Shown piece by piece: positions 997-39,900 of a stretch of DNA of 64,000 nucleotides; the stretch's first letter is position 1; each line of letters begins with the position of its first letter. Under the pieces are notes generated by a model. That model had not been told where the DNA came from. It saw nothing but the letters and a program-made list of their open reading frames with translations, and did not search any database. The stretch lies in the NCBI RefSeq assembly GCF_030684315.1, contig NC_081360.1, positions 86,851,780 to 86,915,779 on the forward strand, read 5' to 3'. The DNA is from Stegostoma tigrinum (taxonomy: Eukaryota). The translations under genes and the position numbers were made by a program.

Positions 997-3900
997 CTGT
1001 GCATGAATTAAAATCAATGTTACTTAATTATCCCCAACATGGATATCATTGGGTCTGTTACACAACAGAATAAAGAAACAGTAATCAAATCAGTTGAACA
1101 GTCTGGACAAATCTCATTGATTAAGAGGATGGGAGGATGATGAATACTAGCTTAAAAATCAACAATGTCAAAGATATGGGAACGCAATTGCCTGGTAACA
1201 GAAAACAGACATATGCAGATGTAGGTTGGGGAGGTGGTATATAATAGGAATGACAATGAGTGAAGAGCCAAAAAAATAGTTGGTAATGTGTTACAAATGG
1301 GCAATCAAAAAGAAAAAAAAACTGATAATAGGGATGTTTCACTTAGCAGATCCTGGAAGCAGTTTGACACGTATAGAAATATCACAGCTTCCTGAATGCA
1401 ATGTTAGCATAACAGTTGTTCACAGACCTGAATTAATTTCACATTCATATCATGCCAGTTCATTTATATTTGACACTTTCTTTGAAATATTCATATGTAC
1501 GCAGATTAAATCTTAAAAAGTGAAACTGTTAGTCTGTCCACTTCCACATCCAGATATCAGGCCTGGAACACAGGTGGCAAGGCTCATCATTTCAAAATCC
1601 CGAATTCCTACAAAAATGTTTGCAAAATTTCAAGAGTAAAAGATAATCAAACAGAAGAAAAATACAGATGCACTTGGGTAGGAATTTTCTTCTCTCTTAT
1701 CAAAGAAAACGGACAAAGTCAAAAGTTCAAAAAGAAGAATTCCAGTGTCGTAGATGCATATGCACAACCATTCGAAGCACAGACTTTAAGGAAAAGCTTG
1801 TTATTCAAGTATCATCATGGGGTGATGCAAAATGAAACAACAAGAAGAAGAAGGCTGAAGAAATAATGAGAAATGGATTAGCTTTACCGACAGCTTCGGG
1901 GCTCAACGGGGCTCTGTGGTTTTGACTATTCTTGAAGAATCAAAAAATGCCCTTGGGTGACAGATAATTTGGAGGAGACAATACTGAGACACATTCGTAT
2001 AGCCCCAGCTCAATCATGGAAATTGCCGAATCTTAGGCTTCTGTTTTCACTTCGGTGGACACTGGAAAAAATGGAAGTCTGAATTGCAAGAATTGAATCC
2101 TATCGGGAGAAATGTGCCAAAAAACATTAATGCAAAACAACCCATGCATGATGGCTTGGTCTAGGACAGCTCCTATTTGTTCCCGTCTACCTCATCTTAC
2201 TATTTGATTGGATTGAATTCATTGTGTTAATATAACTGGTGTTAGAGTACCATTTACATTGGGAGGCACACTTGCTCCCCTGACAACAACAAGATAATTT
2301 GCACAAAGGCCAGGAGCAGAATATAAAATGCAGATAGATACACTATACAGGGATTTCTGATACTTATGTTTATCTTACGTTGCTTGAGAGGATGTTTGCT
2401 TTCTTTGCAACCCTCATCGTGGGAGTATCATATGAAGCAGCTCCATGACCTCTGAGTTTCTGTTTGGTATATTCCACCTATGAAGCGTAGCAAGATGGTA
2501 TGATCAGAGCAGCATTAATTAGTAATTAATGGGTAGCCTGGATGAAATTGCAAGCATGAGATAGATAGTTTGGAACAATAAATTAATACATGGACAGCAG
2601 CAGATTTGAATTACACACCAGTCAGTAAATAACTAGTTAGAAGCAGGATACGGCTCAGTTCTGCCATGTAATGATAGATGACATACATTTCTCAAATATA
2701 ATGGATTTTGGTTATTATCACATACTGGAGATTGCTACATATAAATCAACACTGAAGTTTCAAAAAGTCCTTCCATAAATAGGAGTCACTTATACACAGA
2801 AATATAAAATGTGAACTGTCCATGTTGGTGTGAAAGGGTAACTTCTGTTCATTGCTCATCATGCTGTCTGTTGATGTCTTAAACTCCTGTGTAACTTCTT
2901 GGCACCATACATCTATCACCTGCTTGGTCATTTGTACCAACTCATCAGGTAGAGATTACCTCTAAATATGCACTTCTGAGGTAAAATATTGAAGCCTCAT
3001 GCTAGTATTTCCTTAAATGTGCATTTATTAGCTGAAAAATGGTGATGTTGGATGATTGATACACTAACTGCTTAGCGTATAATAAGTGTTTAAGTGTGTG
3101 CTTATCTAAACTTGCATCTTGGTGCTGAAAGAATGGATCATCTCAAATACCAGGCTGAATTATGCAGTATAACATACTGTGCTATGAAATGAAATGTGTG
3201 TACTTTCTTGAAGCACTGTTGGAGCCCATTTTTAATGTACATTAACTCACTCTCGTACAGAGAAGTGACTGTGGTATTTTCCTCAAGAGGACTTGTACAG
3301 CAACATCCGGTGACTATGTCAGAGGTGATATGATGTCACAAAACTGAACCCAGGAAAATTAGATTGACTACATGGCCCATAGAAAGAAACAATATCTTGG
3401 GCCATGGCTACGTCATTTTAAGCAGTTCACACAGCTTCAAATAATAGAAGGAGTCATCCTGCTGTCCTTGTTCATTGTAAGAGCTTTCTAAATTAGTGCT
3501 ACACTCCCACCCTATCCCTGGAGCATGAGAGGTTTATTTCTTTACAGGTATCTAACTGATTCTCTTTTGGAAAGTTTGCACTATATGGTTATATTTCCCT
3601 CTAAAATGTTACTATAATATAAAACTAAAGCCGCAGGGAAAAGTTTATGCTGCTTCATGACTTTTAGTCATGGCTTTCACATTTGACCTTGAAGCCATGG
3701 GGTACATTATAAGTGATTTTTTTTGTGACAATGAATTTTTTGCCTAATCACCTGTGCTTCTAACCTATATTGGCTCCCTACTCAACCTCAGCTTGAATTT
3801 GAAGTTGTCATCCTTGTTTGCACATTCTTCCATGTCCTCATCCCCGCCCCTGTCTCAGAAACAAGCTCTGGCTCTCCAATCCTTGTAGAGGATTTCTGCA

Positions 3901-6900
3901 AAAGTTTTTCTAATTTTGGTCTTTTGCATGCGACCATCACTTCTCTATTGCTGGCTGTATTTTTAGCTGCCTAAAACTCAAAGTTCTGGAATTCCGTCCC
4001 CAAGCCTTGTTGCCTCTCTAGATCTCCTGTTTTCCCCCTTTAAATTGCTACTAAAACTCCTTTCTTTGACCAAATTTTGCTCACCCAAAGTATATACATT
4101 TATGTGCCTCAGAAGAACAAGTGTCCAAAAACACTCTCAACAAATTTTCTAATACAGCATACATGCTTTTAAAATATATAGCTTTATAATGAAAAAATTA
4201 CTCTGAAAACTATGTGAATAGGTTTTTCATGTTTGATCAGCTTACAGATTACTCACCACATCACAAAGAAAAGGGAGCAATCTGAAACTCACTGTTAGGA
4301 TCAAATGAAGATCAGATAACGGCACTATGCAGGGTACAGAACTCAATGTGATTTTCCCTGGAACATCCATGGCAAGGTCAAATCACAGTTCACCTTCATT
4401 TTTAACCCTCAACAGGCTTTTAATTAGCTTACGCAGCCCTCAAACAATCTCCCCTCTTGTAAATGGTCTGGGGTTCAAGGTAAAGCAAAGGAACTGGCAA
4501 AAGGCCTGGGGTTGTCCCTGCTCAGGCTCAGTGGGGCCCAGAACAATGTGTTGGAACATAAAAAGGGACGGTCCCTTACTGGATAACACTTAACTCCCAA
4601 TCATACTACGTATAGAATTTTTAAAAAGCTGTCTTTAAAATAGAAGACACAAAGTTGTTTTGAACCCTTGCTGAGTCAAAGAAAAGAATCCATAAATTCG
4701 ACCTAAGATAACAAAGTGTGAAGCTGGATGAACACAGCAGGCCAAGCAGCATCTCAGCAGCACAAAAGCTGACGTTTCGGGCCTAGACCCTTCATCAGTC
4801 AGCTTTTGTGCTCCCGAGATGCTGCTTGGCCTGTTGTGTTCATTCAGCTTCACATTTTGTTATCTTGGATTCTCCAGCATCTGCAGTCCCCATTATCTCT
4901 CAAATTCTACCTTTTTTAAAGCAGATTTGTATGTTAAAGGAATACCAAATGATAAGAATGTTCATACTATTGTAAATGCTCATGCAGTGTAAATGCTATT
5001 TTAGGGTATTTCAGGAATAAATTTGTGGGGGCCATGCTGCAGGAACAATTTGAGTGCATTAGAGACTGCAGCAGAGTTTTACAAAATTTGTTCCAAGGAT
5101 GAAAACCCTATCAACCTGGTTGGGAACTTTCAGGGATCTATGCACATGGACACCGATCTCTCTGCTTGTCCACACTACCAAGAATCTTACCATTAGCCCA
5201 GTACTCTCTATTCCTGTTACTCCTTCCAAAGTGAATCACCTCACACTTTTCTGCATTAAACTCCATTTGCCACTTCTCAGCCCAGCTCTGCAGCTTATCA
5301 ATGTCCCTCTGTATGCTGCAACATCCTTCCACACTTATCTACAGCTCCACCGACTTTAGTGTCATCCCTCAAATTTACTAACACATCCTTCTACGCCCTC
5401 ATCTAGGTCATTTATAAAAATGACAAACAGCAGTGGCCCCAAAATGGATCCGAACTCCAGGATGAACATTTCCCATCAATCACTACCCTCTGTCTTCTTA
5501 CAGCTAGCCAATTTCTGATCCAAACCGCTAAATCACCCTCAATCTCATGCCTCTGTATTTTCTGCACTAGCCTACCGTGGGGAACCTTATCAAATGCTTT
5601 ACTGAAATCCATATACACCACATCAACCGCTTTACCCTCATCCACCTGTTTGGTCACCTTCTCAAAGAACTCAGTAAGGTTTCTGAGGCATGACCTACCC
5701 TTCACAAAACCATGTTGACTATCCCTAATCAAATTATTCTTTTTTAGATGATTATAAATCCTATCTCTTATAATCCTTTCCAACACTTTACCCACAACTG
5801 AAGTAAGGCTCACTGGTCTATAATTACCAGGGTTATCTCTACTCCCCATCTTGAACAGGGGGACAACATTTGCTATCCTCCAGTCTTCTGGCATTATTCC
5901 TGTAGACAATGACGACATGAAGATCAAAGTCAAAGGCTCTGCAATCTCCTCCCAAGCTTCCCAGAGAATCCTAGGATAAATCCCATCCGGCCTGGGGGGC
6001 TGATCTATTTTCACACTTTCCAAAATTGCTAACACCGCCACCTTATGAACCTCAATCCCATCCAGTCTAATAGCCTGTATCACAGTATTCTCCTCAACAA
6101 CATTGTCTTTTTCCAGTGTGAATACTGATGAAAAATATTCATTTAGTGACTCTCCTATCTCTTCGGACTCCACACACAACTTCCCACTACTATCCTTGGC
6201 TGGGCCTAATCTTACTCTAGTCATTCTTTTATTCCTGACATAACTATTGAAAGCTTTAGGGTTTTCCTAGATCCTACCTGCCAAAGACTTTGCATGTCTC
6301 CTCCTGGTTCTTCTTAGCTCTCTCTTTAGATCCTTCCTAACTAACTTGTAACTCTCAAGCGGCCCAACTGAGCCTTCACGCTTCATCTTTACATAAGCCT
6401 CCTTTTTCCTCTTGACAAGAAATTCAACTTATTTAGTAAACCATGATTCCCTCGCTCAACCACTTCATCCCTGCCTGACAGGTCCATACTTATCAAGGAC
6501 ACGCAGTAGCTGTTTCTTGATCACACTCCATATTTCAATTGTGCCCAGCCACTGCAGTTTCCTTCCCCATCCTATGCATCCTAAATCTTGCCTAATCGCC
6601 TCATAATTGCCTTTAACCCAGCTATAACTCTTGAACAAAGAACAAAGAAAATTACAGCACAGGAACAGGCCCCTCGGCCCTCCAAGCCTGCGCCAATCAA
6701 GATCCTCTGTCTAACCTGTCATCTATTTTCTAGGGGTCTGTGTCCATTTGCTCTCTGCCCATCCATGTACCTGTCCAAATATATCTTAAAAGACGCTAAT
6801 GTGCCTGCGTCTACCACCTCCGCTAGCAACGTGTTCCAGGCACCCACCACGCTCTATGTAAAGAACTTTCCATGTATATCTCCCTTAAACTTTCCTCCTC

Positions 6901-9900
6901 TCACTTTGAACTCATGACCCCTAGTAATTGAGTCCTCCACTCTGGGAAAAAGCTTTTTGCTATCCACCCTGTCTATACCCCTCATGATTTTGTAGACCTC
7001 AATTAGGTGCCCCCTCAATCTCCATCTTTCTAATGAAAATAATCCTAATCTACTCAACTGCTCATCATAGCTAGCACCCTCCATACCAGGCAACGTCCTG
7101 GTGAACCTCCTCTGCACCCTCTCCAAAGCATCCACATCCTTTTGGCAATGTGGCGACTAGAACTGTACACAGTACTCCAAATGTGGACCAACCAAAGTCC
7201 TATACAACTGCAACATGACCTGCCAACTCTTGTACTCAATACCCCATCCAATGAAGGAAAGCATGCCATATGCCTTCTTGACCACCTTATTGACGTGCGT
7301 TGTCACCTTCAGGAAACAATGGACCTGAACACCCAGATCTCTCTGTTCATGAATTTTCCCTAGGACTTTTCCATTTACTGTATAGTTCACCCTTGAATTT
7401 GATCGTCCAAAATGCATCACCTCGCATTTGCCCGGATTGAATTCCATCTGCCAATTATCTGCCTAAATCTCCAATCTATCTATATTCTGCTGTAATCTCT
7501 GACAGTCCCCTTCACTATCTGCAACTCCACCAATCTTAGTGTCATCTACAAACGTGCTGATCAGACCACCTACACCTTCCTCCAAATCATTTACATATAC
7601 CACAAACAACAGTGGTCCCAGCACAGATCCCTGTGGAACACCACTGGTCACAGGTCTCCAATTTGAGAAACTCCCTTCTACTAGTACTCTCTGTCTCCTG
7701 TTGCCTAGTCAGTTTTTTATCCATCTAGCTAGCATACCCTGGACCCCATGTGACTTCACATTCTCCATCAGCCTGCCATGGGGAACCTTATCAAACGCCT
7801 TACTGAAGTCCATGACCTGCAGTATCACCCTATCCCTTTCCATCGCTAAAGTAAATGTAACCAAAATGTTGTCACTATCACCAAAGTGCTCACCTACCTC
7901 CACATCTAACACCTGGCCTGGTTCATTACCCATTACTAAATCCAATGTGGCCTCGACTCTTGTTGGCCTATCTACATACTGTGTCAGGAAACCCTCCTGT
8001 GCACATTGGACAAAAATTGACCCATCTAAAATACTCAAACTATAGCGTTATAACTATATTTTCAATCGAAAAGATTAAAATGTTTTCTGGGCAAGTATGT
8101 CTGAAACTTAACTAGAATGTAACATCATTGTTACATGCAGTAGAAGGAAGGAGTAATCATATCTGGAAACACAATTCTATAACTACAGTCTTTAAAGCTG
8201 ATTGCAATGACTTCATGTTCAAAGAAACAAATCAAATTCCTTCTTTACTATTAAGATAGTCTTTAAAGAAAACAAATTAATTATTTTCTCTCCCATTTAA
8301 ATTATTTACCTCTATGGGAGAAAGACATTTTAAATCATGAACATCCTGCAATGTGGAGGGCTACGGAGACAGAAATGGAGAATGGGAGTAGCTGGGTAGC
8401 TCTTTTGGGAGCTAGTACAGACATGAAGAGCCAAAGTTGCTATCAGGCTACAAAACATTACACAAAATACACAGCACAAATACAGACCACTGGCTCAACT
8501 TGCCTATGCCAGTGTTTCATGTTCACTTGATCTTCTATGATGCTTCAGTTCTGGTTGCCTCATTGCAGGAAAGACGTGGTAGTTTTAGAGAGGCTACAGA
8601 AGAAATTTACCAGGATGCTGCCTGGACTAGAGGGTAGGTCTTATGAGGAAAGGTTGAGGAAGCAAGGGCTCTTTTCATTGGAATGAAGAAGGATGAAAGT
8701 TGACACAATAGAGGCTTACAAGATGATGAGAGGCATAGATAGTGTGGATAATCAGAGACATTTTCCCCAGAGCAGAAATGACTATTACGAGGGGGCATAA
8801 TTTTAATGTGTTTGAAGGAAGGTATGGGGAGATGTCAGAGATAGGCTCTTCACACAGAAAGTGATGGGCATGTGGAATGCGCTGCTGGAAGTGGTAGTAG
8901 AATCAAATACTTTGGAGGCTTTTAGATAAGCACAAGGAGGATAGTAAAATGTAGGGTATGCAGGGTAGATTGACCTTAGTAGGATAATAGGTCAGCACAA
9001 CATCATGGACTGAAGGGCCTGTACTGTGCTGTAATGTTCCATGTTCTATGTCCTGTGTCCTTCCCATTAATTTCCACAAGCTGAACCTCTCTCAGAGAAT
9101 TGTTAACTTCACTTAATTACATCATTACTATTTGCCTCAACTAAACTCTTTGGTAGTGAATTACATACTCTCATCATACTCTGGGTAATAAGTTACTTTT
9201 TAATCCTGTGTGTGATTTCTTACGAACTATCTTACATTGAGAGGCTCTGCTTTTGCCTTCCTGCTTCAGTGCGCATTCTCTATCGAAAAAATGTCATAAT
9301 GTTAAACACCCCCATTTGGACACTCATCAGCCTTCCCCTTTTTGGAAAAAGAAAGAGACTCATGCATTTACAGAGTTGATTGTGCTACCACTAAGAAACA
9401 TGACAAGTTGAGAGTAACAGTGCTCTCGACACAGCTTCAAAATTAACTTTAAAATAAATGTACAAAATCTCAACAAACACTCTGTAAAGTCAACAGTTAC
9501 ACAAAAGCAGGAAGAGGTAGAAATCAACATGTAAGAATTGTCACAAGAAAGAAGTCATTGATTTAAAACCACAATTGAAAATTTTGAGAATAAACATTGA
9601 AACTTCTAGAATAGTCGCATCTTGCATGATTCATAAGATTCTCTCCAGTCATTCAGCCTAACCATTTTCTCACAATTTTTTGGGGTTGATTTTAGCCTTT
9701 CTTGTAGTTTGTGACACGATGATAATGTAATGTTGGATACAGTCTGACACAACATAATAGAGTTTGACATATTTGCTACAATCTTATATGACTCAGTGTG
9801 GACCAATACAGTTTGATACAGTCTGGAGCCTCAAACAATCTCACAATCTTGTTGTCTTTTTAAGGTTATTACTTCAGATTCTGACATGCAATCCCTTATC

Positions 9901-12900
9901 TGTTTTACCTGGCTGGTAAGTTTGGAAACCTCTTTGGCAAGTTCAATGTCTGGGCGTCCAAGGCTGATTATACCGCGACTAGCCTCCTCACGTGCTTTCG
10001 TCCTGTATCCAATCTGGAAAAGAAAAATAGACAAAACTCATGTGACGGGCTGTACTTGAGCCAAGATAATAGTTTGTAGGGTAATGCTTAAAAGAATGAA
10101 ACATACTCACATCACTTATTAACTTGGCAGCTTCAGTGGCTTTTAGAATATCTGGACGATCTGCTACAGATGTGTAAGCAAGTTTGGATTTAGCATCTTT
10201 CTTATAATCGATCTGCAGGACAGAGGATATTTTATTGTCACTGACATATGGCTTCACTAAAGATTGATACGAGAAATAAGTTCTAAATAAATCATTCATT
10301 CCTTAAAGCTTCTATTCCCACTTAGGTATGGCGAGCTTGGGATGACACAGTTTCTTCAATGTAGACAATGCATCATGGCCGTTTGCAGTAGGGAGGTTGT
10401 GGTGATGTGGAGAGAGAGTAAAGATATGTTGAGATCGATAAGAGAACAGATGCTGAGTGGTCAAGGGTGACACAAGAGATTCTGATCAAAATCATGGTGG
10501 AAAAGATTAGTTTCAGAATTAGGGAAGGATCACAAGGCCTGAGCAGAATCAACTGGAAGAGGATGGGATGACCAGTCTCAAATCATTACCTAATTCTGAA
10601 GATTGCAAGCAGCTTGAATTTCCTCCTGGCAAATTGACTTCCCACCTCCTACCTCAGCTATGACATTCACCTAAGATTAGACAGTGGAGTTACTTTCATT
10701 TCAAGCTGGCCTAGTCCTCCCCAAACACATGGCAAGTGGCTCTAAAGTATTGACCTAAAAAGAACCTGCAGCTGATTATTAACTGGTTCTACGCGTCACA
10801 TAGGTTCACGTAGCCTAATAGAAATATCTAAGAGATCCGCTCCTGTAATGAAGGTTGAATTTGTAAGCCCAAATAGAATGCAGACCACAAAAGATCACAG
10901 GAGGTTGTGCTACTGACTGGCATGCTGGCTCCATTCTGTTCCTGGGATATCTTCCTGGACGTTGGATGGGGATGCAACTACCCTTACATGGCAGAAAGAC
11001 AGCTGAGTGTGTTAAAGGCCTAAAGGATGATTTTCTATTATCATTACCTGACCAAAATTGTCTAGTTGGTCCCTAGGACCCTGGAGGTGAGTGGGAATGG
11101 TCAAGCTACCTGAGCGTAGGCCCCAAGCAGCAGAATGGGAGTTAGCTCTCCCGCCAAGCTTTGAGGAGCTCCCCCTCTGTCTAGCTACAACTGCTTTCAC
11201 AAGATACTCTACAAAGGGTCTCATGACACCTCTAACCAGCGACAAAGCTCAGCTGCTGAGGAGGATATTTATTTTAAATAAAAAGAGTTGAAGAGATTGT
11301 GGGCTAATTTTTGCCTCTGAGACAAGAAATTTCCCAACTTGGAAGATCCAGTTTCTTTAAAAATGTTCGCATCACCCAAATTTCTCTTCCAGCCAAGTTG
11401 GGGGCCGGGTGAAGATGGGAGTGAGGAATAAAGGCAGTTAATGGTAGCCATGGAGAGGGGCAAGTGCTAAAGTGACGTTATTAGAAAGCCTGTTTGGTTC
11501 TTTGAGACTTCAACCAGTTGTTTAAAAGGCCGTTTGGACCTATAGTCCTGATCTGTCACTTTCATTCCAACCCATGTGTCCCTTACACATGTGCCATGTT
11601 TCATGCTCCCTCATATCTGCCATAACCACTCTTCCAGTTTACCCAAACTAAGACAGCTCCCCTAAAATACACCCGATTTTGAAAAAAAATCTATTTCGTG
11701 AAAATAATTAAATCTCAAGTGATTAATCTGCTTAAAATCAAATAAATTTTATTCATTATAAACTATAAGTCAAAGTATGCACTCAGGAGGCTATTACAGG
11801 ATTAGCTGTCTTTATGGTTAATGAGACAAATGAGTTTTGAGCTTTTGAAACTCAGTAAAGCATTCATAAAGGCACAGCTGTAATCACACCCTTGAGAAAA
11901 GTTAATAATGACAGCTATTGAAACTATAAGAGCACATAGCTAATGATTTTATGTCTAAGCTGTCCCAGTTGACCATTAGTTGGTCAAATTTGGAAAAATC
12001 AGAGCTGGATTGTTTTCTGCTTATTGTAGCAGTTCTAACTTTTAGAATGGAGTAAAAATGGAGTCTGGTGCTTATGGGAAAAAAAAATGACCAGCCTTGA
12101 ATTCCATAGGAAGATTAGGAACATGTACAACCAAGAAAAGAATGCAAAATGATTAGCATGCTTACATTACTCTGACATTTGGCCACATTCATTGCGTGTT
12201 TCACATCTGGGGGTTCCATCATAATGGAATATGAGGACTTGCCTTTGTCTTTCTCAAACTGCTCCTTGTACAGTTTCTGTGGTAAAAGAAATTCATATTA
12301 ATAATCAGATAATGCTCCATGAATCTTCATTACAATTTTTTAAAAACTCCATAATATATCCAGGAGTAAAACTGAAGTTTAGGAATATAAATTAAGTGTA
12401 GCATACAGCTGGGAAAGCCCTTTCAAATTACAATATAACTGAAGTGGTCTAGCATACCGTATACAAGTCTGCTGTACCTCCTACTTCAATACATGATCCA
12501 CATTTTCTGACTCTAAAGCCCTCAATTTTACTTGAGACATAATAATTGCAAATGGGGTGCAGAAACGTATATGTCCTTCAAAGAGGTTTGAGTCAGTGAG
12601 CCTACCAATATTATTAAAATGTTTCTTCTATGTTAGAGAGGAATGACTGGCACAAGTACAGGATGGGATTAGGACTTTTGACATTTATCACAGTCAGTGA
12701 TTGTTTCATATGTGGTATAAAAGAAACAAGTACAATTTCAAATGAAAAGAAATGCTCTTCACCATCTCATGCACCTTTTCATGAGTTAATGATTAACTGA
12801 AAATCCTATACTTAGTGCCAAATGTGGAAACTTCAAAGCTTGGAAAGCACAGCAGCATTGTAGAATCCAGTGAGGGATACTGAAGGCTTCTTAATGACTG

Positions 12901-24900: not shown

Positions 24901-27900
24901 CCTCGCCTTAATTTGAATTTGGCTTCAGACTTATATGATTGCTGTCGATAAAAAATGCACATGCATGCAAAGGATGATGGAACATAAGCCAAGCCAGAAA
25001 AAGACACCAGTGTTCATCATCCTCGAACTCAAGTCACTGTATCAGTGAAAAGGTTCTCACCGGCTTCAATAGCCCTACCCAGTAAAGCATTTATTTGGGT
25101 AGATGACATCCACATAAAGCATACCAGCAGATGACTGCTGGTTATCTTGTAGATGGCCAGCATTCTAGTGCAAGCTCCACAGAATTACCTGGCTACTTAG
25201 TCGCCCCGACCTTTTGGCTAGAAGGTTTCTAGGATCATCCAAAACCAAGGTATACTTGCTCTTCTGCTTCTCATAGAAAGCTTTGTATGACTTCTGCTCA
25301 GAATATGGAGATTTAGTTAAAACAATGCATTCTTTTCAATATTTTGGTAAGGGGAGTGTGAGGTGAGGGGAATTAACTGATTTAACTGGTGCATGGGGAT
25401 AAAATATTTCAATATCTGGCTCTAGGACAAGTCATTGCAGTCAGATTTTCTCATAGGATTCAATCTTCTAAGCCTTATCTGAAAATCTGACGCTGGCTAC
25501 CTGAAGTCAGAATCAAAATGTTGATCCCATTTCCGATTACCAGTCACTTGTATCTAAAGAAAGAGAATGACACTTGTGCAGTTTTAAAAGGGCTATATCC
25601 ATGTTTTAAAATTCTTGGCAACAGCTCCTGCAAAAGTGAGCATATATTAGTATTTTTCTTGTAGTCATAGGAGTTGCTGTAAAGACATACCTCAAAATGG
25701 AATAGAAGTAAATATTACTTTAACTGATTAATTGTAATGGTAGAACTCTTAATCATAAAAATAATCAACATGTTTTTTCTCTGGCTGAGACTTGAGTGTT
25801 TTTGAATTTTAATTGTGTCGTTTTTAGCCTCTAGCAGGTTGGAAGTGAGGATCATAACGATTAATGAACTGCCTGGGATGCCAGATAAAGCAAATGATGA
25901 ATATTAACATTCTTTTTGCTTCTGTCAAAAAAACATTTAGGTAGTGTTTGGTTAGATAACTTGGAACATGTGTATTTTAATTACTTACATGGAGATCTAC
26001 AGCCTAATGATACAGTTTATCTTTGCTCTTAATTATTTTCTCAAGCACAGTATAGATTAAAGACGTTACAATTTCATCCTTCATTTCAGTTTTTTGAACA
26101 GAACTGTTTCAACATTCGGGAAGAAGAGATTTAATTAAAAGTGAAACAACGGTGCTAAGGAAGTAGTTTTATTTATACTTGCGGTAAATGGAAAGTCGTA
26201 TATATTTTTACCTCCATTTTTACCTTATAACAATTTCTTGTGTCCTCTATGTAGCAGTTAAGAAAATTGCAAAGAGAAAAGGTGTGGTAAGGAAATAAAT
26301 ATCATTAATGACTATAAAAGCTAAAAGCTATTTCCTACCGTTTGGATTTTGATTCATTTTATCAATGAAGGCTTAAAAAAAAACCTTTTATTAACACAAC
26401 ACACTTCTGTGAAGAGTTCAAGCTCTATACAATTGAGAAAGTCTCAAGCTGCCACAAAGCACCAGACCCATTAAGAAATATTATTGGTACATTAAATAAT
26501 GTTGGTATTCATTAACAAAATCTACTCAGCCTAATATTGACATTTTCTATTCTGTTTATCCTTGAAAGCAAATTCAAAAAAGATAATGCTGTTAACAGAT
26601 TTAGTGTCTATATTTTGGGACAAAAATATAGATCAAGAATGTCCAAGTTTTATGTTGGAAGATGTGTACCAGAGAGCCTTGAGAGTGGTGTGAGGTTGAA
26701 ACCCATGTTCCCATAACCAGTTACCGATACAAACACATCTTGGCACTATGACAAAGGATTCATCCACCGTACGGGTGACAGTGCTAAAACCCTTCAGAGT
26801 CACTGAATACAAAATAGGAGCCATTAACAAGTAAGGGATGCAATGTGTATAGGAGTGAATTGTTTGGGCTTTCGAAAAGGCTTGAAGGCTCCAACTGGCC
26901 CAAGGGTCACATGTTGGATATTTGTAACAGAGACAAATATGGCCTTATTAATTCTGTCCGATTTGCACAAACCTCATCTAAAATTGCTGTTGCCGCCTGA
27001 GCATGCCGGATGTGCGGTGTATCTGCAGTGTACTTGAAGTTGTTTCTTAGTTTTGCAACTGATTCTCGGTACTTGTACTGTAAAAGAAAATATTACAGAT
27101 AAGTAAATTAGACAGCAAAACCTCTCTAAGAGCAGAAAACAGAACAAAATATCTACTTTTTTAGCATATGTTTCATAAATCAGTAAGTAGTTGATTGTTC
27201 GGAATTGTAGAACAGTGAATTCCTTCTAATGGTTTGTTAAATTTATGGTGTCACTGCCTGCTGCTTAGACCACTATTGACCATATTTAATCATATCACAT
27301 TGCAAACGAAACAGATCTTAGGACCTCAGAGTTAGTACGAACTGCAGATGCTGGAGTCAGAGATAACACAGTGTGAAGCTAAAGGAACACAGCAGGCCAA
27401 GCAGCATCAGAGGAGCAGGAAAGTCAATATTTCAGATCGAGGCCCTTCTTCAGAAATGGGGGGAGGGGGAAGGGAGCTGAGAAATACATACAGAGAGGAG
27501 AGATGGGGCTGGGGAAGGTAGATGTGATGGTGATAGGTGACTGCAGAACGGGAGTGGTGGGGATTGGTCAGTGAGGTGGGAGGGGCGGATAGGTGGGAGA
27601 GAAGATGGACAAGTTGTGTCAGGTCAAGGAGGCAGAAATGAGAGGGAGGGTTGAACATGGGTGAGGCCGGGGTTGGGGGGTGTCGAGATTTTGAAACTGG
27701 TAAAATGCAAGTTCAGGTCATCGGGCTGCAGACTCCCGAGGCAGAATACGAGGTGCTGCTCCTTCAGTTTGCGTGTGGTGTCATTGTGACACTGGAGGAG
27801 GCCGAGGGAGTGGGAGGGGGAGTTAAACTGGTTCATAATTGGAAGGTGTTGTCACTTGTCTCATCCGACTTCATCCCATGACTAACCCTCCCTCTTATCC

Positions 27901-30900
27901 CTGTCTCCTTGACCGGACGCAACTTGTCCATCTTTTATCCCACCTATCTGCTCCTCCCACCTCACTGACCAATCCCCACCACTGCCTACCTGCACTCACC
28001 TACCAACATTCCATCTACTTTCCCCAGCCTAACGCCTCCTCTTTCTACTTATTTCTGAGCTCCCTTCCCCATCCTCAGTTCTGAAGAACAGTCCCAATCC
28101 AAAACGTCAATTTTTCTGCTCCTTTGATGTTGCCTGGCCTGCTGTGTTCCTTCAGAACATAGGACCTGACTTGTGAAATGGTGATTATAATTTAACACGT
28201 GTGCATGTTCAGAGTGTTACTCCACATTTTCCTGATCCCTCAGTTGTCAATTTCTGCAATGTTTGAAATAAGACAACCCTGTAGAATGGAGAAGAGATCG
28301 AGAAATAATTGGGGCTTGTAACAAAAGTACTGCAATAACTATTGGAGATTTAGCCTTCATATCGATTAGATGAATCAAAAATGTAAGCAGAAGCAGCCTG
28401 GTTGATGAGTTCATAGAGAGTATTTATGACAGCATCATAGAATGTTACATTCTGAAACCAAATAAAGAATAGACAATTTTAAAACTGGTAATGTACAATG
28501 AACTGTTGATCCCATGGCAAAGGTGCCCTTTAGTTAACAGAATAGAATGTCATGTTCAGGTTGAGGGTTAGAAATGTGAGTCTTAACCTAGTGCTTTTAA
28601 CATAATTAAAGGTAATTACAGGGGTATGAAGACTAAGGTGGCTAGCATGAATCAGGTTAATGGATTAAATGGTAGAGAAGCAGTGGCAGATACTTATGGA
28701 GTGATCTGATAACTCTCAAAAAGGATACATTCCATTGAAAAATAAAGATTTTTGAGAATAATGCACCATCTGTGGCATGATAAACTTTTCTTTACGTAAG
28801 TAATCCGTGATCCCAGAAAACAGCAACCAGAAAATGTGACATTTCCAGCCAGAAATGGGAGTGGGGCTTCTTGCAAGGTTTTCAACTGATCACTCAAATC
28901 GTTTTGGTCATTGAAGAAAAGTTCTGTGTCACAGTTAGTTGAGGAAGGATATAGCATTCAGGGAAGTGAGTATGTGACAGGAGACAGTGCTACAGTTAGT
29001 ACTGCTGGAAAGGCAGCTGAACTATACAGATTCTGTGTAGGAAACTCAGTGAGGAGTTGAAAGCAGTTGGATGTTGCCATGCTATTAGAAATTTGGGAAG
29101 ATATTCTGAAAACTGGTGGGCAGATAAATGTTATAGTTAGGATTCAGAAGAAGAACAACAGAGCTGAGAAGGTAGGAAGCTCACTGGCTGTGAGGTGGGG
29201 AAGCTGTGAGGTAATCAGAAAAGGCTTGCCAGTATTAAGACCTCAGTGCACTGGGATTGTAGTGTCTGCAGAGCTCACAAGCAGTATTTGTTTAGACCAT
29301 AAGGCTTATAAGCTGCAGGAACAGAAGTTGGCATTCAGATCTGCTCTGCCATTCAACAAGATCATGGTTGATCTGATAATCCTCAACTCCACTTTACTGA
29401 CGTTTCCCCATAGCCCTTGATTCCTTTAATGATTAGATATATGTCTATTTCGGGCTTGAATCTACTTAAATCCCAACTTGACACCCCCCTGAGATAAAGG
29501 AATTCTTCAGATTCATCACCTTCAGAGAAAAAAAACTTCCTTATCTCCGACTTAAAAGGGTGACTCCTTGCTTTGAGGTTCTGCCTTCAAGCCTTAATCC
29601 TTTGATCCTAGCTAGAAAATCATAATGAAATTAAATAGCAAATAGTGTACAGAAATAGGCCATTACCCAAGTCACCGAAGTTCCACAGGACCTTCCTTGC
29701 ACCACACCCCATCTAATCTTTTCAGCCTTCTATTCATATCTACATCTTATGTTTAAATTGTATTTCCTTAAACTAGCTATGTGTGTGTGTGATGAGAAAA
29801 TATGTGGTAAAGACAGAATCAGACTCAACTGTCATAATCCCACAGTGGAATAGGTTACTTTCTACACAAGAACGTATGACATTGGAATTGGAGTGAGACA
29901 GCTATCTGTGGAATTAGATAAATTAACATGAATTGGCACCTTCAGTAGAGAAGAGAAAATGAAAGTGAAGTTGAAATTAAATATTCTTACCAAAAATAAA
30001 GGAGCCCTAATGGTCAATAGTGTGTGGAGGCATAAGACTGAAGACTGACAAATATATTTCAAGTTTGTCGACAGCAGGAAATGCTGAAATGTGTGGCCCT
30101 AAACAAAGGCGAAGAGATGTTTCTGAAGAAGAGTCTAGGCCCGAAACATCAGCTATTCTGCTCCTAAGATGCTGCTTGGCCTGCTGTGTTCATCCAGCTT
30201 TACACTTTGTTATCTCAGATTCTCCAGCATCTGCAGTTTCTACTATCTCTGAAGAGATGGCTGGTTCTGCGAAGTGACTAACTCACTCACATGAGCATGC
30301 CAGGTTATACAGCAAAGGTGCACATTCTTACCTGGCTGTAGAGCTCTTTGTTCTTTTCTGCCAACATCAAATCAGGAGTGTCCCATGCATAGCAACCAAT
30401 TCCTCTCAGCCATCCCAAGTCTTCTTTGTATTTAACCTAGTTGGAAAATAATCATTTTTATTTGAGGTGTCTGATTTTGGGCATGTATTTACACTTTGAT
30501 GAAACATTCACATTTTCTGAAAATGAAAATAAGAACTTTTAAATAGTTAATTTCAGTACTTTAAACACTGAACACAGAGAATGGTGGATTGGAAAGGACC
30601 AGAGAGAAAAAAAATTAAGGTCATCCGACCGCTCCCTTCTTGAGAGGCTGTGGAATTTGATGGAATAACGGTCATTTCCTGGTCATGGGTGGGTATATGC
30701 AAGCGTGAGACCCAAGCAGACAAAAAGCAAGTCCATGCCCACACATGGCTATGTGCCTTTTTTAAAAATCATTCAGAGGATGTAGGCATCACCAACTAGG
30801 CCAGCAATTATCACCCAGCCTTATTGCTGAGAGGGCAGTTAAAAGTCAACCACTTTACTGTGGGTCTGGATTTACATGTAGGCCAGGCCTGGTCAGTATT

Positions 30901-36900: not shown

Positions 36901-39900
36901 GTTCATACTAACAGTATGCCTACGCTACCTGGTTTAAAATAAGATCTGCTTTCTTGGCTGCAGTGATGCTGATGGTTTCTGGGATCAGCTTGTAACCTCT
37001 TGCTTTCATATGTTCATAAGCTTCTTTATACTTCAGCTAGAAAAGAACATGAGAAATGTTTTTGACAATCATGCCCATCAGAAGAACAAAATCTTATAGT
37101 TGAACAGAAGAAACAAACAGGCAGAAATATTTGTGCCATGTAAATCCTATGATTCCGAGTGTGTGTATTTAGTGCTGTGCTCTTTGAGTTACTGTGAACA
37201 TTGTTCTGACACCACTATCTGCATTCACCACATGGATTTGTGTGACTATCATCCTTAGAAATAGTGGGTGATTAGCATAAACCCTAGAGGAACAGTACAA
37301 ACAATACTTCTCTACATTACAACAGTGACAACATTTCAAAGTATTAGCTGTGAAGTAATTAAGGGCAGGAATGATGCCATACCAGATTATATATTTCAAT
37401 TATATTGTTGAGGGATATACATTAGCCATGACACCAGAGGTAACTTTTTCTATCCTTCCCTGAAATTATACCATGCGACTTTTATGTCCATCCAATAGTG
37501 CAGGTGAGGCCTTGGTATAACGTTTCATCCAACAGGTGGTGCTTCTATCACACCTCTATCACATACTGACATGGTACAGCAATGGATTTCCACCTACACT
37601 TTGAACTAATGTCCCCACAATGAGACTTGAATCCACAACATTCTGATATAAGTGCTTCTACAGAACTGATAGCAAAAAGCAGGGAAGAAAATTAGCTATA
37701 ATAAAAGAAGCCTAAAAAATTGAAAGCTGATCTTTAATGATTGCTGATAAAATATTGTCAGAAAGGGAGCAGCATGTTTTGGGAAAAAATTATACAGCTA
37801 AACTCATGGGGATGTTGACAACTAGGCATAAGTGACACAGCAGTTGGAAAACTGCACTTACAAACTTTGAGGAAGTTAATACAGTCCGGTGTATAATCTG
37901 CCTCAAGTTCCACTCACTAAGTTTTGCTGTCAATAATCCATTCAAACAAAACAGCCTTAATTAAGTGTTTCGGCTAAAAATGGTTAAAATAATTTAAAAG
38001 GGTTTCACGGAGACATTGTCTTTTATAGATTTCTTGGTAAGAAATCTGCACCCGAAAGCTGCACACTTACATGTGTTTTGCACATGAAAAAGCACAACGT
38101 AGGTAAATTTGATGAAATAAGTTAATGCCAGTGGTCCTAAACCACACTCAATTGGAATTTATATGACTGAGAAACACATTATAATCTTAAAACTAATGGA
38201 AGTTAATCACCACTGTTCCTGGCAAGCTTAGTTTTTCTGAAATCAATAACAGTCCTAGCTATTGCAAAATTTTACAGTTATACAAATTTTCATAGAACCA
38301 GAAAATGCTGTTCTTAAGTAGGAAATAACAGTGATTAAAACCAAATTAAAGTGTCTCATCTTAAATAAACATTTGACTGCTAAGACTAAGCAAAAGACAA
38401 TTTTCTCCCAAACTGGGACAGATAGATCTCATTTCACTTGGGCAATTAAAGTAAATGTTACTTTATGAACTGATGGACACTCTAGTTGATATATTTTACT
38501 GTAACATTTTCCAAAATCTGAAACTGGATCCTGCCCACAGGATAAAATTTTATTTTCTCTTTTTTTTGAAGCAATTTAACTTCAGTTCTTTAATACATTT
38601 CTACCTGTGTATATAACTTATATAGTTTCACACAATCTTCTGTTTGGCCATCTCAGAAGCTTGACTTTGTATCTCTGGTGGGGTGCTACATCACTGAGGA
38701 ACAGTTCTCGAACCGTAATGCTATCTGGCTTATTATAAACAATTCATGGTACAGGTGCCATTAAAATATTAGGTTAAATATCCAAAAGCTTAATTAAACA
38801 AATAGTTAAAGAGTATTGTTAAGAGACAGAGCACTGTAGGGTGAGTTGTGTCCCAGAGAATAAAAAGCATGACCAGTAACAGAGGTGCAATTGAAATTGG
38901 AGATGCACAAGAGGTCGGTATTAGAGAAGCATAGATATCCTGGGAGAGATCACAGAAACAGAGAGGGGCAAAGCCATGGAACTGAAAACAAGAATCAGGA
39001 TTTTTAAAGCCTTATGGAGCCAATGTATGTTACAAGCACAGAGATAAAGGAGCAGCATTTGCTCCTTAAGTCACAGGCAGCAGAGTTTTGAAACTTTATG
39101 GAGGATAGAATGTAGGAGACCAACAAAGAGTGCTTTTAAATAGTCAAATCCAGAGGTAGCCAAGGCATGAATGAGTAGCTAATGAGTTAGGTGCTGATAT
39201 TCTGAAATGGAAATAACTGATCTTAACAATAGTGAAAACCGTCTTAAAATTACCACAAAGAAAGCAGACTAACTTAATCTCAGACCATTGCTAGAGAGCA
39301 GGATGGTGATGGCGAGACAGTAAGAACTGCCAAAGCTGGAGTTAGAGATAACACAGTGTGGAGCTGGAGGAACACAGCAGGCCAGGCAGCATTAGAGGAG
39401 CAAGAAAGCTGATGTTTCAGGTTGGGACCCTTCTTCAGAAGAAGAGTCCTGACCCGAAATGTCAACTTCCCTGCTCCACTGGTGCTGCCTGGCCTGCTGT
39501 GTTCCTCCAGCTCCACACTGGGTTATTTAGGATGGTGATGATAACCGGGGAATGAAATACTGGAGCAATGACCAAAAATATTGGCTTCAGTCTTTTCATG
39601 ATTTAATCGGAGAAAATTTCTGCTCATCTCGTACCGAATGTGAGGTAAACAGCGGTGGAAAAGCTGAGAGAGGTGATGGTGAGGGAGAGCAGAGTGCGTG
39701 TGTGGAAAAATTAATGCTGTGTCTTTGAATGATGTAGCTGGAGGGCAACACACAGATGAGAAATAGGAGGGTGGCCAAGGGTAGGTCTTGCAGATCAAGT
39801 GATTGACTGAGGTTTGATAAATAAGAATGGAATTATGTGACTTCAGTCCTGCCATCTTGATGGCAGCGGAGGATAATTGGATGAAGCGTGCTGAGAACCA

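What the first reader, a model, noticed from the sequence alone, without database searches (positions are those of the whole stretch)
4705..4901. Intact hammerhead-ribozyme core in the NEB sense strand, held in the loop of a ~69-bp hairpin
Seen: the minus strand at 4771-4798, which is the nebulin pre-mRNA strand, reads CUGAUGA A GGG ucuagg CCC GAAA C GUC. That gives both catalytic boxes, a 3-bp stem II, a loopless palindromic ACGU stem III and a GUC cleavage triplet. It is the only copy in the window with all core nucleotides intact. Known: Penelope-like retroelements carry such minimal hammerheads, which can act as dimers through the palindromic stem III. Inference: the element's inverted duplication puts cacaaaagcu(ga) just 5' of the core and agcuuuugug just 3' of the cleavage site. 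This could supply a long stem I offset by 2 nt, or lock the ribozyme off by pairing GAC with GUC. A conditional self-cleaving site in an intron of a giant muscle transcript could affect splicing near extra exon w43.
Basis: partly seen in the sequence, partly recalled or inferred. Interest (0 to 1): 0.72.

Follow-up and report, generated by a model that had tools for sequence, protein, structure and literature searches.

The report
Penelope stub hammerhead in nebulin intron
A 197-base leftover of a Penelope-type jumping gene carries a tiny hammerhead-ribozyme motif, one of about 92,000 identical copies in this genome, into a nebulin intron, where it is predicted to stay zipped inside a long hairpin and likely does not cut the muscle RNA, so the site itself looks ordinary.

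Summary
The motif and the 69-bp hairpin are real, on the nebulin sense strand. They are not special to nebulin. The identical 28-nt core occurs 92,176 times in the genome, at the 3' end of a Penelope-like retroelement (reverse transcriptase plus GIY-YIG, Neptune-type linker). Bases 4705-4901 are one insertion with the published layout: truncated end, head-to-head inverted copy, one-sided tail and 11-bp target duplication. A related species has the empty site. An abundant RNA-like contig splices the 7,431-nt intron exactly. GUC is predicted >99% paired; opening the core costs 8.4 kcal/mol. The scan has noted such insertions in at least 10 other genomes. One family-level lead remains. Most short copies begin at the core's 5' edge, but a second junction peak starts exactly at the predicted cut site: 3,158 copies against 407-492 at neighbouring bases, and 727 AGCT palindromes against 53 at ACGT five bases upstream. 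Microhomology explains most of it, leaving about a two-fold excess. It may record in-vivo cleavage of the element's RNA; reverse-transcriptase pausing is the rival.

The parts
4705..4901 (.). Whole insertion, 197 bp: head-to-head pair of Penelope-like pLTR ends
   Evidence: Bounded by the target duplication. Removing 4694-4901 gives the join seen in organism B contig 25, 4693|4902.
4694..4704 (+). Target-site duplication, left copy (11 bp, 1 mismatch to the right copy)
   Evidence: empty site
4902..4912 (+). Target-site duplication, right copy
   Evidence: empty site
4705..4798 (-). Core-bearing copy: element positions 0 to +93, 5'-truncated exactly at the hammerhead's first base, no tail; 90 of 94 nt identical to a young family copy (L012)
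4771..4798 (-). Minimal type-I hammerhead core: CUGAUGA 4798-4792, bulged A 4791, stem II 4790-4787/4782-4779, GAAA 4778-4775, palindromic ACGU 4775-4772, GUC 4773-4771; predicted cut between 4771 and 4770
   Evidence: 92,176 exact genome copies
4798..4901 (+). Inverted copy: element positions +25 to about +129; lacks the catalytic boxes and carries the tail; replaces the native 5' strand of stem I
4867..4901 (+). About 35-nt 'tail', present on this arm only
   Evidence: tail on exactly one arm in 21 of 22 short inverted copies; feature described in PMC8557442 and PMC11167929
2478..9908 (-). Host nebulin intron, 7,431 nt, GT-AG
   Evidence: joint 2475-9907, cut +2, depth 1572 in run X18
2379..2477 (-). 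Downstream nebulin exon (33 codons), 2.2 kb from the insertion; included in the spliced contig
9909..10013 (-). Upstream nebulin exon (35 codons), 5.0 kb from the insertion

Best explanation
Bases 4705-4901 are a single insertion of two head-to-head ends of a very abundant Penelope-like retroelement in a nebulin intron, and its intact hammerhead core is predicted to be locked in the resulting hairpin, so it likely does not cleave the pre-mRNA. How it likely arose (inferred): the element's protein nicked both strands 11 bp apart and copied its RNA from the two internal start sites (+93 and about +129). One copy ran to the hammerhead's first base and the other to +25. The two were joined head to head over one shared base. 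That join removed the native 5' strand of stem I and put GAC opposite GUC. In the transcript the inverted arm is made first, so the hairpin is predicted to close as the cut site emerges, and the intron is then spliced out. Shown: sequence anatomy, copy number, link to an RT/GIY-YIG frame, target duplication, empty site, exact splice joint. Predicted: the fold. Untested: cleavage.
For:: 92,176 exact cores, reversed-pattern control 0; longer copies run upstream into a frame with a YIDD reverse-transcriptase motif, a C-x4-C-x2-C linker and GIY-YIG (Pfam E 1.9e-4; RVT_1 E 3.8e-3); 43 of 100 copies picked by a 3' anchor have an adjacent inverted copy; tail on one arm only in 21 of 22 short inverted copies; 11-bp duplication here; 931 copies of the same junction class; organism B contig joins 4693 to 4902; run X18 joins the exons across the intron at depth 1572. 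G, U, C and the next base are paired at 0.996-1.000; C17 is paired at 0.996 once 2 nt beyond the site are made; open-core fraction about 1e-6; a trans ACGU stem gives only -3.1 kcal/mol. Papers: single minimal hammerheads showed no detectable cleavage and dimers low cleavage (PMC4209133); the anole element's ribozyme needed the element's protein (PMC11167929).
Against: No raw RNA reads were available, so RNA ends at 4770/4771 are untested. A spliced contig does not exclude cleavage of a minority of transcripts. Run X18's library type and tissue are not on record. The empty site rests on one contig of one run; a second organism-B run did not bridge the site. Both Pfam hits lie below the curated cut-offs, no solved structure matched, and no RT tree was built. 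Folding models ignore tertiary contacts, proteins, helicases and A-to-I editing. At the instant GUC emerges it is only 51% paired.
Confidence: 0.88

Rival explanations
1. Conditional regulatory ribozyme: the inverted arm slips by 2 nt to form a long stem I, a second family RNA completes stem III in trans, and cleavage modulates splicing or level of nebulin mRNA.
For: All core bases are intact and on the sense strand. The offset form keeps most of the hairpin (-120.5 against -128.8 kcal/mol). Family sequence is abundant in the RNA-like runs X17 and X18, so trans partners may exist. Conserved intronic hammerheads exist in amniotes (PMC6155905, passages).
Against: 8.4 kcal/mol penalty against -3.1 from the trans stem. 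The offset leaves a 2-nt bulge at the base of stem I. The insertion is absent in a relative about 6% diverged (241 differences over about 3.9 kb). An intact core is the family default for young copies. The intron is spliced exactly.
Confidence: 0.04
2. The insertion has a small effect on nebulin RNA through the hairpin itself (a double-stranded substrate for editing or small-RNA processing), not through catalysis.
For: Very stable 69-bp hairpin in a highly expressed transcript.
Against: It lies 2.2 kb and 5.0 kb from the splice sites. Tens of thousands of similar hairpins are implied genome-wide (43 of 100 sampled copies; 117,812 anchor matches), including a second one in this gene at 39346-39526. 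No exonisation joint was among the 15 joints shown of 1,176.
Confidence: 0.06
3. The hairpin arose after insertion, by a DNA fold-back or repair event on a single copy, rather than during retrotransposition.
For: The arms differ from each other at 7% of positions. Junction palindromes have been read as self-priming, possibly on an antisense template (PMC3846280, passages).
Against: One target duplication encloses both arms. The tail is on one arm only, as in 21 of 22 sampled short inverted copies. The relative's empty site lacks both arms.
Confidence: 0.02

Closest known systems
Minimal type-I hammerheads (min-HHR) of metazoan Penelope-like elements (Cervera and de la Pena 2014, PMC4209133)
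   Same: Both boxes, an extra base between positions 9 and 10.1, the G10.1-C11.1 pair, palindromic 15.2-16.2 with no loop 3, and location in the pLTR; mostly single copies scattered genome-wide.
   Different: Stem I is only 2 bp in the native family (80 of 93 copies), as in D. virilis Penelope rather than the usual 4-5 bp, and is replaced at this locus. There are 92,176 identical cores, against about 4,000 (coelacanth) and 9,000 (Xenopus) variable motifs in that paper; the search methods differ.
Endonuclease-bearing Penelope-like insertions with inverted 5'-truncated copy, one-sided tail and target duplication (PMC8557442; Pen2a_Av in PMC3846280); Neptune/Nematis type by linker motif
   Same: Head-to-head inverted copy, 30-40 bp tail on one end, 9-15 bp duplication, RT followed by GIY-YIG, CX2-5CxxC linker.
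   Different: This copy is only 197 bp with no coding sequence. The clade was assigned by motif only.
Poseidon element of Anolis carolinensis (PAc; PMC11167929)
   Same: Two 3' ends about 35 nt apart defining the tail; ribozyme near the copied end; an AUG inside the core.
   Different: Different clade by linker. Here the AUG opens only 13 codons, whereas in PAc it starts the ORF. That paper found no RNA reads ending at the cut site; this family shows a junction peak there.
Domesticated intronic hammerheads of amniotes (RECK and others; PMC6155905)
   Same: Type-I hammerhead core in an intron, on the sense strand.
   Different: Those are conserved across birds and mammals, with full helices and tertiary contacts. 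This one is lineage-specific, minimal and locked.

Membership tests
Minimal hammerhead of Penelope-like elements | CUGANGA and GAAA boxes, NUH triplet | tested here: met
Minimal hammerhead of Penelope-like elements | Extra base between 9 and 10.1; G10.1-C11.1 pair; palindromic 15.2-16.2 | tested here: met
   A at 4791, GGG/CCC, ACGU; features from PMC4209133
Minimal hammerhead of Penelope-like elements | Helix I closing directly on the core | tested here: not met
   At this locus the first pair would be A-A and GUC is paired instead. The native family has 2 bp in 80 of 93 copies. So this is a truncated relic of a member, not a complete ribozyme.
Minimal hammerhead of Penelope-like elements | Self-cleavage as dimer or with protein | not testable with these tools
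   Needs in vitro assay; no raw RNA reads listed
Rfam hammerhead families | Covariance-model match | tested here: not met
   no hammerhead among 3 hits at E<=1 in the window
Endonuclease-bearing Penelope-like element | RT followed by C-terminal GIY-YIG in longer copies | tested here: met
   (motifs clear; Pfam scores 22.1 and 17.4 bits, under cut-offs 22.6 and 29.6)
Endonuclease-bearing Penelope-like element | Inverted 5'-truncated copy adjacent to the 5' end | tested here: met
Endonuclease-bearing Penelope-like element | 30-40 bp tail on one end | tested here: met
Endonuclease-bearing Penelope-like element | Short target-site duplication and empty site | tested here: met
Endonuclease-bearing Penelope-like element | Partial tandem with a full-length downstream copy in the family | not tested
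   The two long copies extended (L039, L040) were 5'-truncated; no full-length copy was sought
Neptune clade | CX2-5CxxC linker between RT and endonuclease | tested here: met
   C-x4-C-x2-C in L039 and L040; shared with Nematis per PMC8557442
Neptune clade | Placement in an RT phylogeny | not tested
   No reference set of Penelope-like RTs was fetched
Domesticated intronic hammerhead (RECK type) | Conserved at the orthologous site across species | tested here: not met
   Empty site in organism B
Non-LTR retrozyme | At least two tandem units, each with a complete hammerhead | tested here: not met
   One core, head-to-head layout; definition from bioRxiv 10.64898/2026.07.22.740005

The most novel reading that the evidence does not exclude
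The nebulin copy is inert, but the family records hammerhead cleavage in vivo: a minority of the element's RNA templates are cut after GUC, reverse transcriptase runs off the cut end, and the resulting AGCT ends anneal into perfect head-to-head palindromes. With about 10^5 young copies, junction maps would give genomic evidence that a Penelope-type ribozyme acts during retrotransposition, while most templates stay uncut and begin at the core's 5' edge.
Probability: 0.3. Interest if true: 0.6.

Novelty: new member of a known kind. Interest (0 to 1): 0.22.

Why it matters
The site itself matters little: it is one relic among tens of thousands. The family matters more. What hammerheads do in Penelope-like elements is stated as unclear (PMC8557442), and the one reconstituted element did not need cleavage in vitro and showed no RNA ends at the site (PMC11167929). 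A genome with 92,176 identical cores and a junction peak on the scissile bond makes the question testable by counting junctions in the assembly and mapping RNA ends. It also implies very many sense-strand cores in introns, a large pool from which conserved intronic hammerheads like those of amniotes could arise (inference).

Tried and rejected
Rfam scan: no hammerhead match. Loose box pattern: chance level. Sequencing runs: no RNA holder listed; contigs cannot show RNA ends. Second read laying: three bisulfite runs read at about 1 in 100 and one organism-B run were swamped by other family copies and did not bridge the site. PDB sequence search with the element's frame: nothing at E<0.3. Fetched nebulin homologues did not cover the region near the insertion, so 'extra exon' could not be judged. 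An extra G at simple 5' junctions, as a sign of a capped start: only 3 of 9 simple short copies had a findable duplication, so inconclusive. Cut-site peak among simple insertions alone: about 221 (90-439) at +28 against 78, 136 and 115 at neighbours; intervals overlap, not significant. The first tally of core-selected copies (n=90) dropped 3 distinct copies by my de-duplication and was redone by coordinate (n=93). The apparent 5'-edge hotspot in that sample could have been a selection effect, so it was re-tested with a 3' anchor. Lunse et al. 2017 could not be read.

Full report
OBSERVATION. Two arms, 4705-4773 and 4798-4866, are 93% complementary over 69 nt with a 24-nt loop. The RNA folds at -127.3 kcal/mol, z -16.6. 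Open, phase-0, AG/GT-bounded nebulin-repeat exons run along the minus strand. Pfam Nebulin passes its cut-off on 1 of 5 exons tested and scores weakly on 2 more. A 104-aa exon finds 19 proteins, mostly named nebulin at 53-70% identity, against 40% for nebulin-related anchoring protein. The motif lies in intron 2478-9908. Rfam does not recognise it, and the bare box pattern is at chance level, 10 hits against 7.4. Copies at 30123 and 39438 also keep both boxes and an NUH triplet but have broken stems. That the host is a shark is my inference from recalled repeat types and from earlier scan notes on other genomes; no call names the organism.

WHAT IT IS. The exact 28-nt core occurs 92,176 times in G000 (3.2 Gb; reversed control 0), and a 3' anchor 117,812 times. 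The window holds 10 alignable pieces. Longer copies continue upstream through a pyrimidine-rich stretch into a frame with YIDD, a C-x4-C-x2-C linker and a GIY-YIG domain. Pfam gives GIY-YIG at E 1.9e-4 and RVT_1 at E 3.8e-3, both under their curated cut-offs. PMC8557442 (passages) assigns such a linker to Neptune and Nematis elements. It also describes an inverted 5'-truncated copy next to the 5' end and a 30-40 bp tail on one end. The window copy has all of this. With 0 = first C of CUGAUGA, the core-bearing copy runs 0 to +93, the inverted copy +25 to +129 with the tail, and an 11-bp duplication with one mismatch flanks them. In organism B, one 4,386-nt contig joins 4693 directly to 4902, i.e. 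the empty site; it differs at 241 places over about 3.9 kb. The layout is common: 43 of 100 copies chosen by the 3' anchor (first 50 per strand on contig C1; arms of one insertion count separately) and 29 of 93 chosen by the core have an adjacent inverted copy. The junction class of this locus has 931 copies. The exact 26-nt junction occurs 8 times including this one; 7 of the 8 have the same hairpin layout, in different flanks.

HOW IT LIKELY WORKS. In the native family, stem I is only 2 bp (80 of 93 copies; 3 have more), and the core is itself predicted to mispair CUGAUG with CGUCAG, about 8 kcal/mol from an open form. At this locus the native 5' strand is gone and GAC faces GUC. Pairing probabilities are 0.996-1.000. 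The offset stem I costs 8.4 kcal/mol (fraction about 1e-6), and a trans ACGU stem returns -3.1. In prefix folds, C17 is 51% paired at emergence and 99.6% two bases later. Published minimal hammerheads gave no detectable monomer cleavage and low dimer cleavage (PMC4209133, parts 1-2 of 4). The anole element's ribozyme cut only with protein, was dispensable for insertion in vitro, and left no RNA reads ending at the site (PMC11167929, parts 1-2 of 4). Run X18 (same species label, type not on record, covering exons and repeats only) has contigs at depth about 1,550 that join 996-2379, 2477-9909 and 10013-10111 at GT-AG ends. So the intron is removed exactly and exon 2379-2477 is included. This does not exclude minor cleavage. 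The formation model, two cDNAs from two nicks and two start sites joined head to head, is inferred from the one-sided tail (21 of 22) and from the two-strand nicking and two start sites in PMC11167929. PMC3846280 (passages) instead reads junction palindromes as self-priming, possibly on an antisense template.

FAMILY-LEVEL LEAD. Among the 100 anchor-chosen copies, 5' ends fall as follows: 38 at or beyond about -300 (mostly the limit of the DNA examined), 13 from -236 to -51, 0 from -50 to -15, 29 from -11 to +6, 0 from +7 to +20, 1 at +21, and 18 from +27 to +57, with 4 at +28. One end in +7..+26 against 18 in +27..+57 gives p 0.001, treating arms as independent, which they are not. The main cluster at the core's 5' edge likely marks where the template RNA starts; D. 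virilis Penelope has an internal promoter (PMC2377424, passages), and an earlier scan note saw the same cluster in another genome. Genome-wide, copies starting at +27, +28, +29 and +30 with three non-matching bases before them number 469, 3,158, 407 and 492; +28 is the first base after the predicted cut. Perfect head-to-head palindromes number 727 at AGCT (+28), 53 at ACGT (+23), 24 at GGCC (+55) and 281 at GGCC (+15; a looser pattern, inside a 12-nt near-palindrome). Against reading this as cleavage: 65 of the 100 listed +28 copies are preceded by AAA, most of them AGCT fold-backs, and that product arises equally from two ends at +30, where reverse transcriptase would meet the CUGAUG/CGUCAG helix. 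I classified 58 of those 100 from fetched DNA, two of them reassigned by eye from 'simple' to 'inverted'; the other 42 were taken as palindromes from paired positions or the list. Leaving out junctions with 2 or more bases of microhomology and copies that simply continue, 25 of 100 remain at +28, against 14, 28 and 20 of 30 at +27, +29 and +30. That scales to 790 (533-1,094) against 219, 380 and 328 (upper bounds 308-407), where a flat rate predicts values within 20% of each other. For simple insertions alone the intervals overlap. So a modest excess at the cut site is shown; its cause is not.

COMPARISON AND NOVELTY. It works like, and by the tested features is, a truncated endonuclease-bearing Penelope-like insertion with a minimal hammerhead. 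It fails the tests for a complete ribozyme (no stem I on the core), for a domesticated intronic hammerhead (not conserved) and for a retrozyme (no tandem). Six paper searches found no report of this family's copy number or of a junction peak at the cut site. I did not read the supplements of PMC4209133 or PMC8557442, the supplements of the bioRxiv retrozyme preprint are closed (I read part 1 of 5 and passages; it includes one chondrichthyan), and Lunse et al. 2017 was not held (seen only as cited in PMC6765202, passages); any of these may list such motifs. PMC6155905 was seen as passages. The scan itself holds 58 notes matching all words of my query, in at least 10 genomes.

VERDICT. Real motif, ordinary locus: confidence 0.88 that it is an inert, locked relic; 0.04 for a regulatory ribozyme in nebulin. 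Interest 0.22, carried mainly by the family-level junction peak (probability 0.3 that it records cleavage, interest 0.6 if so).

Noticed in passing
window 39346-39526: A second, older head-to-head insertion of the same superfamily in another nebulin intron (arms 89 nt, 85% complementary, 1 nt apart); its sense-strand core keeps both boxes and an AUC triplet, but stem III is broken.
   Followed up: partly
window 27329-28155: Longer diverged head-to-head pair (arms 27462-27661 and 27875-28074, 83%) with both pLTR ends facing outward.
   Followed up: no
window 5104-8046 and 8546-9054: Clustered fragments of other high-copy repeats in the same intron, with relatives elsewhere in the window; they look like CR1-type LINEs (label recalled, not tested).
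   Followed up: no
G000 C1, 100 anchor-chosen copies: [quoted passage not shown]
   Followed up: partly
G000, genome-wide: Junction peak at the first base after the predicted cut: 3,158 against 407-492 at neighbours; 727 AGCT palindromes against 53 at ACGT.
   Followed up: yes
L012:1487-1530 (native context): The native core has only a 2-bp stem I and is predicted to self-lock by pairing CUGAUG with CGUCAG; fold-back junctions just upstream of the core can create a 6-7 bp stem I (L027, L030).
   Followed up: partly
L030 and L225: The same unidentified upstream stretch is fused to the element at -2 in one copy and at +28 in another; it may be another repeat or the element's own 5' region.
   Followed up: no
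L039:6319-7686; L040:4734-7784: A 456-codon open RT-to-endonuclease fragment, and a copy with 863-nt inverted arms at 95% identity; the family looks recently active.
   Followed up: partly
L323: A copy in which the first box is joined directly to +28, i.e. the middle of the core is deleted up to the cut site.
   Followed up: no
G000 C4, 12.9-13.6 Mb: The same rare junction recurs six times at roughly 90-160 kb spacing, suggesting a large tandem segmental duplication.
   Followed up: no
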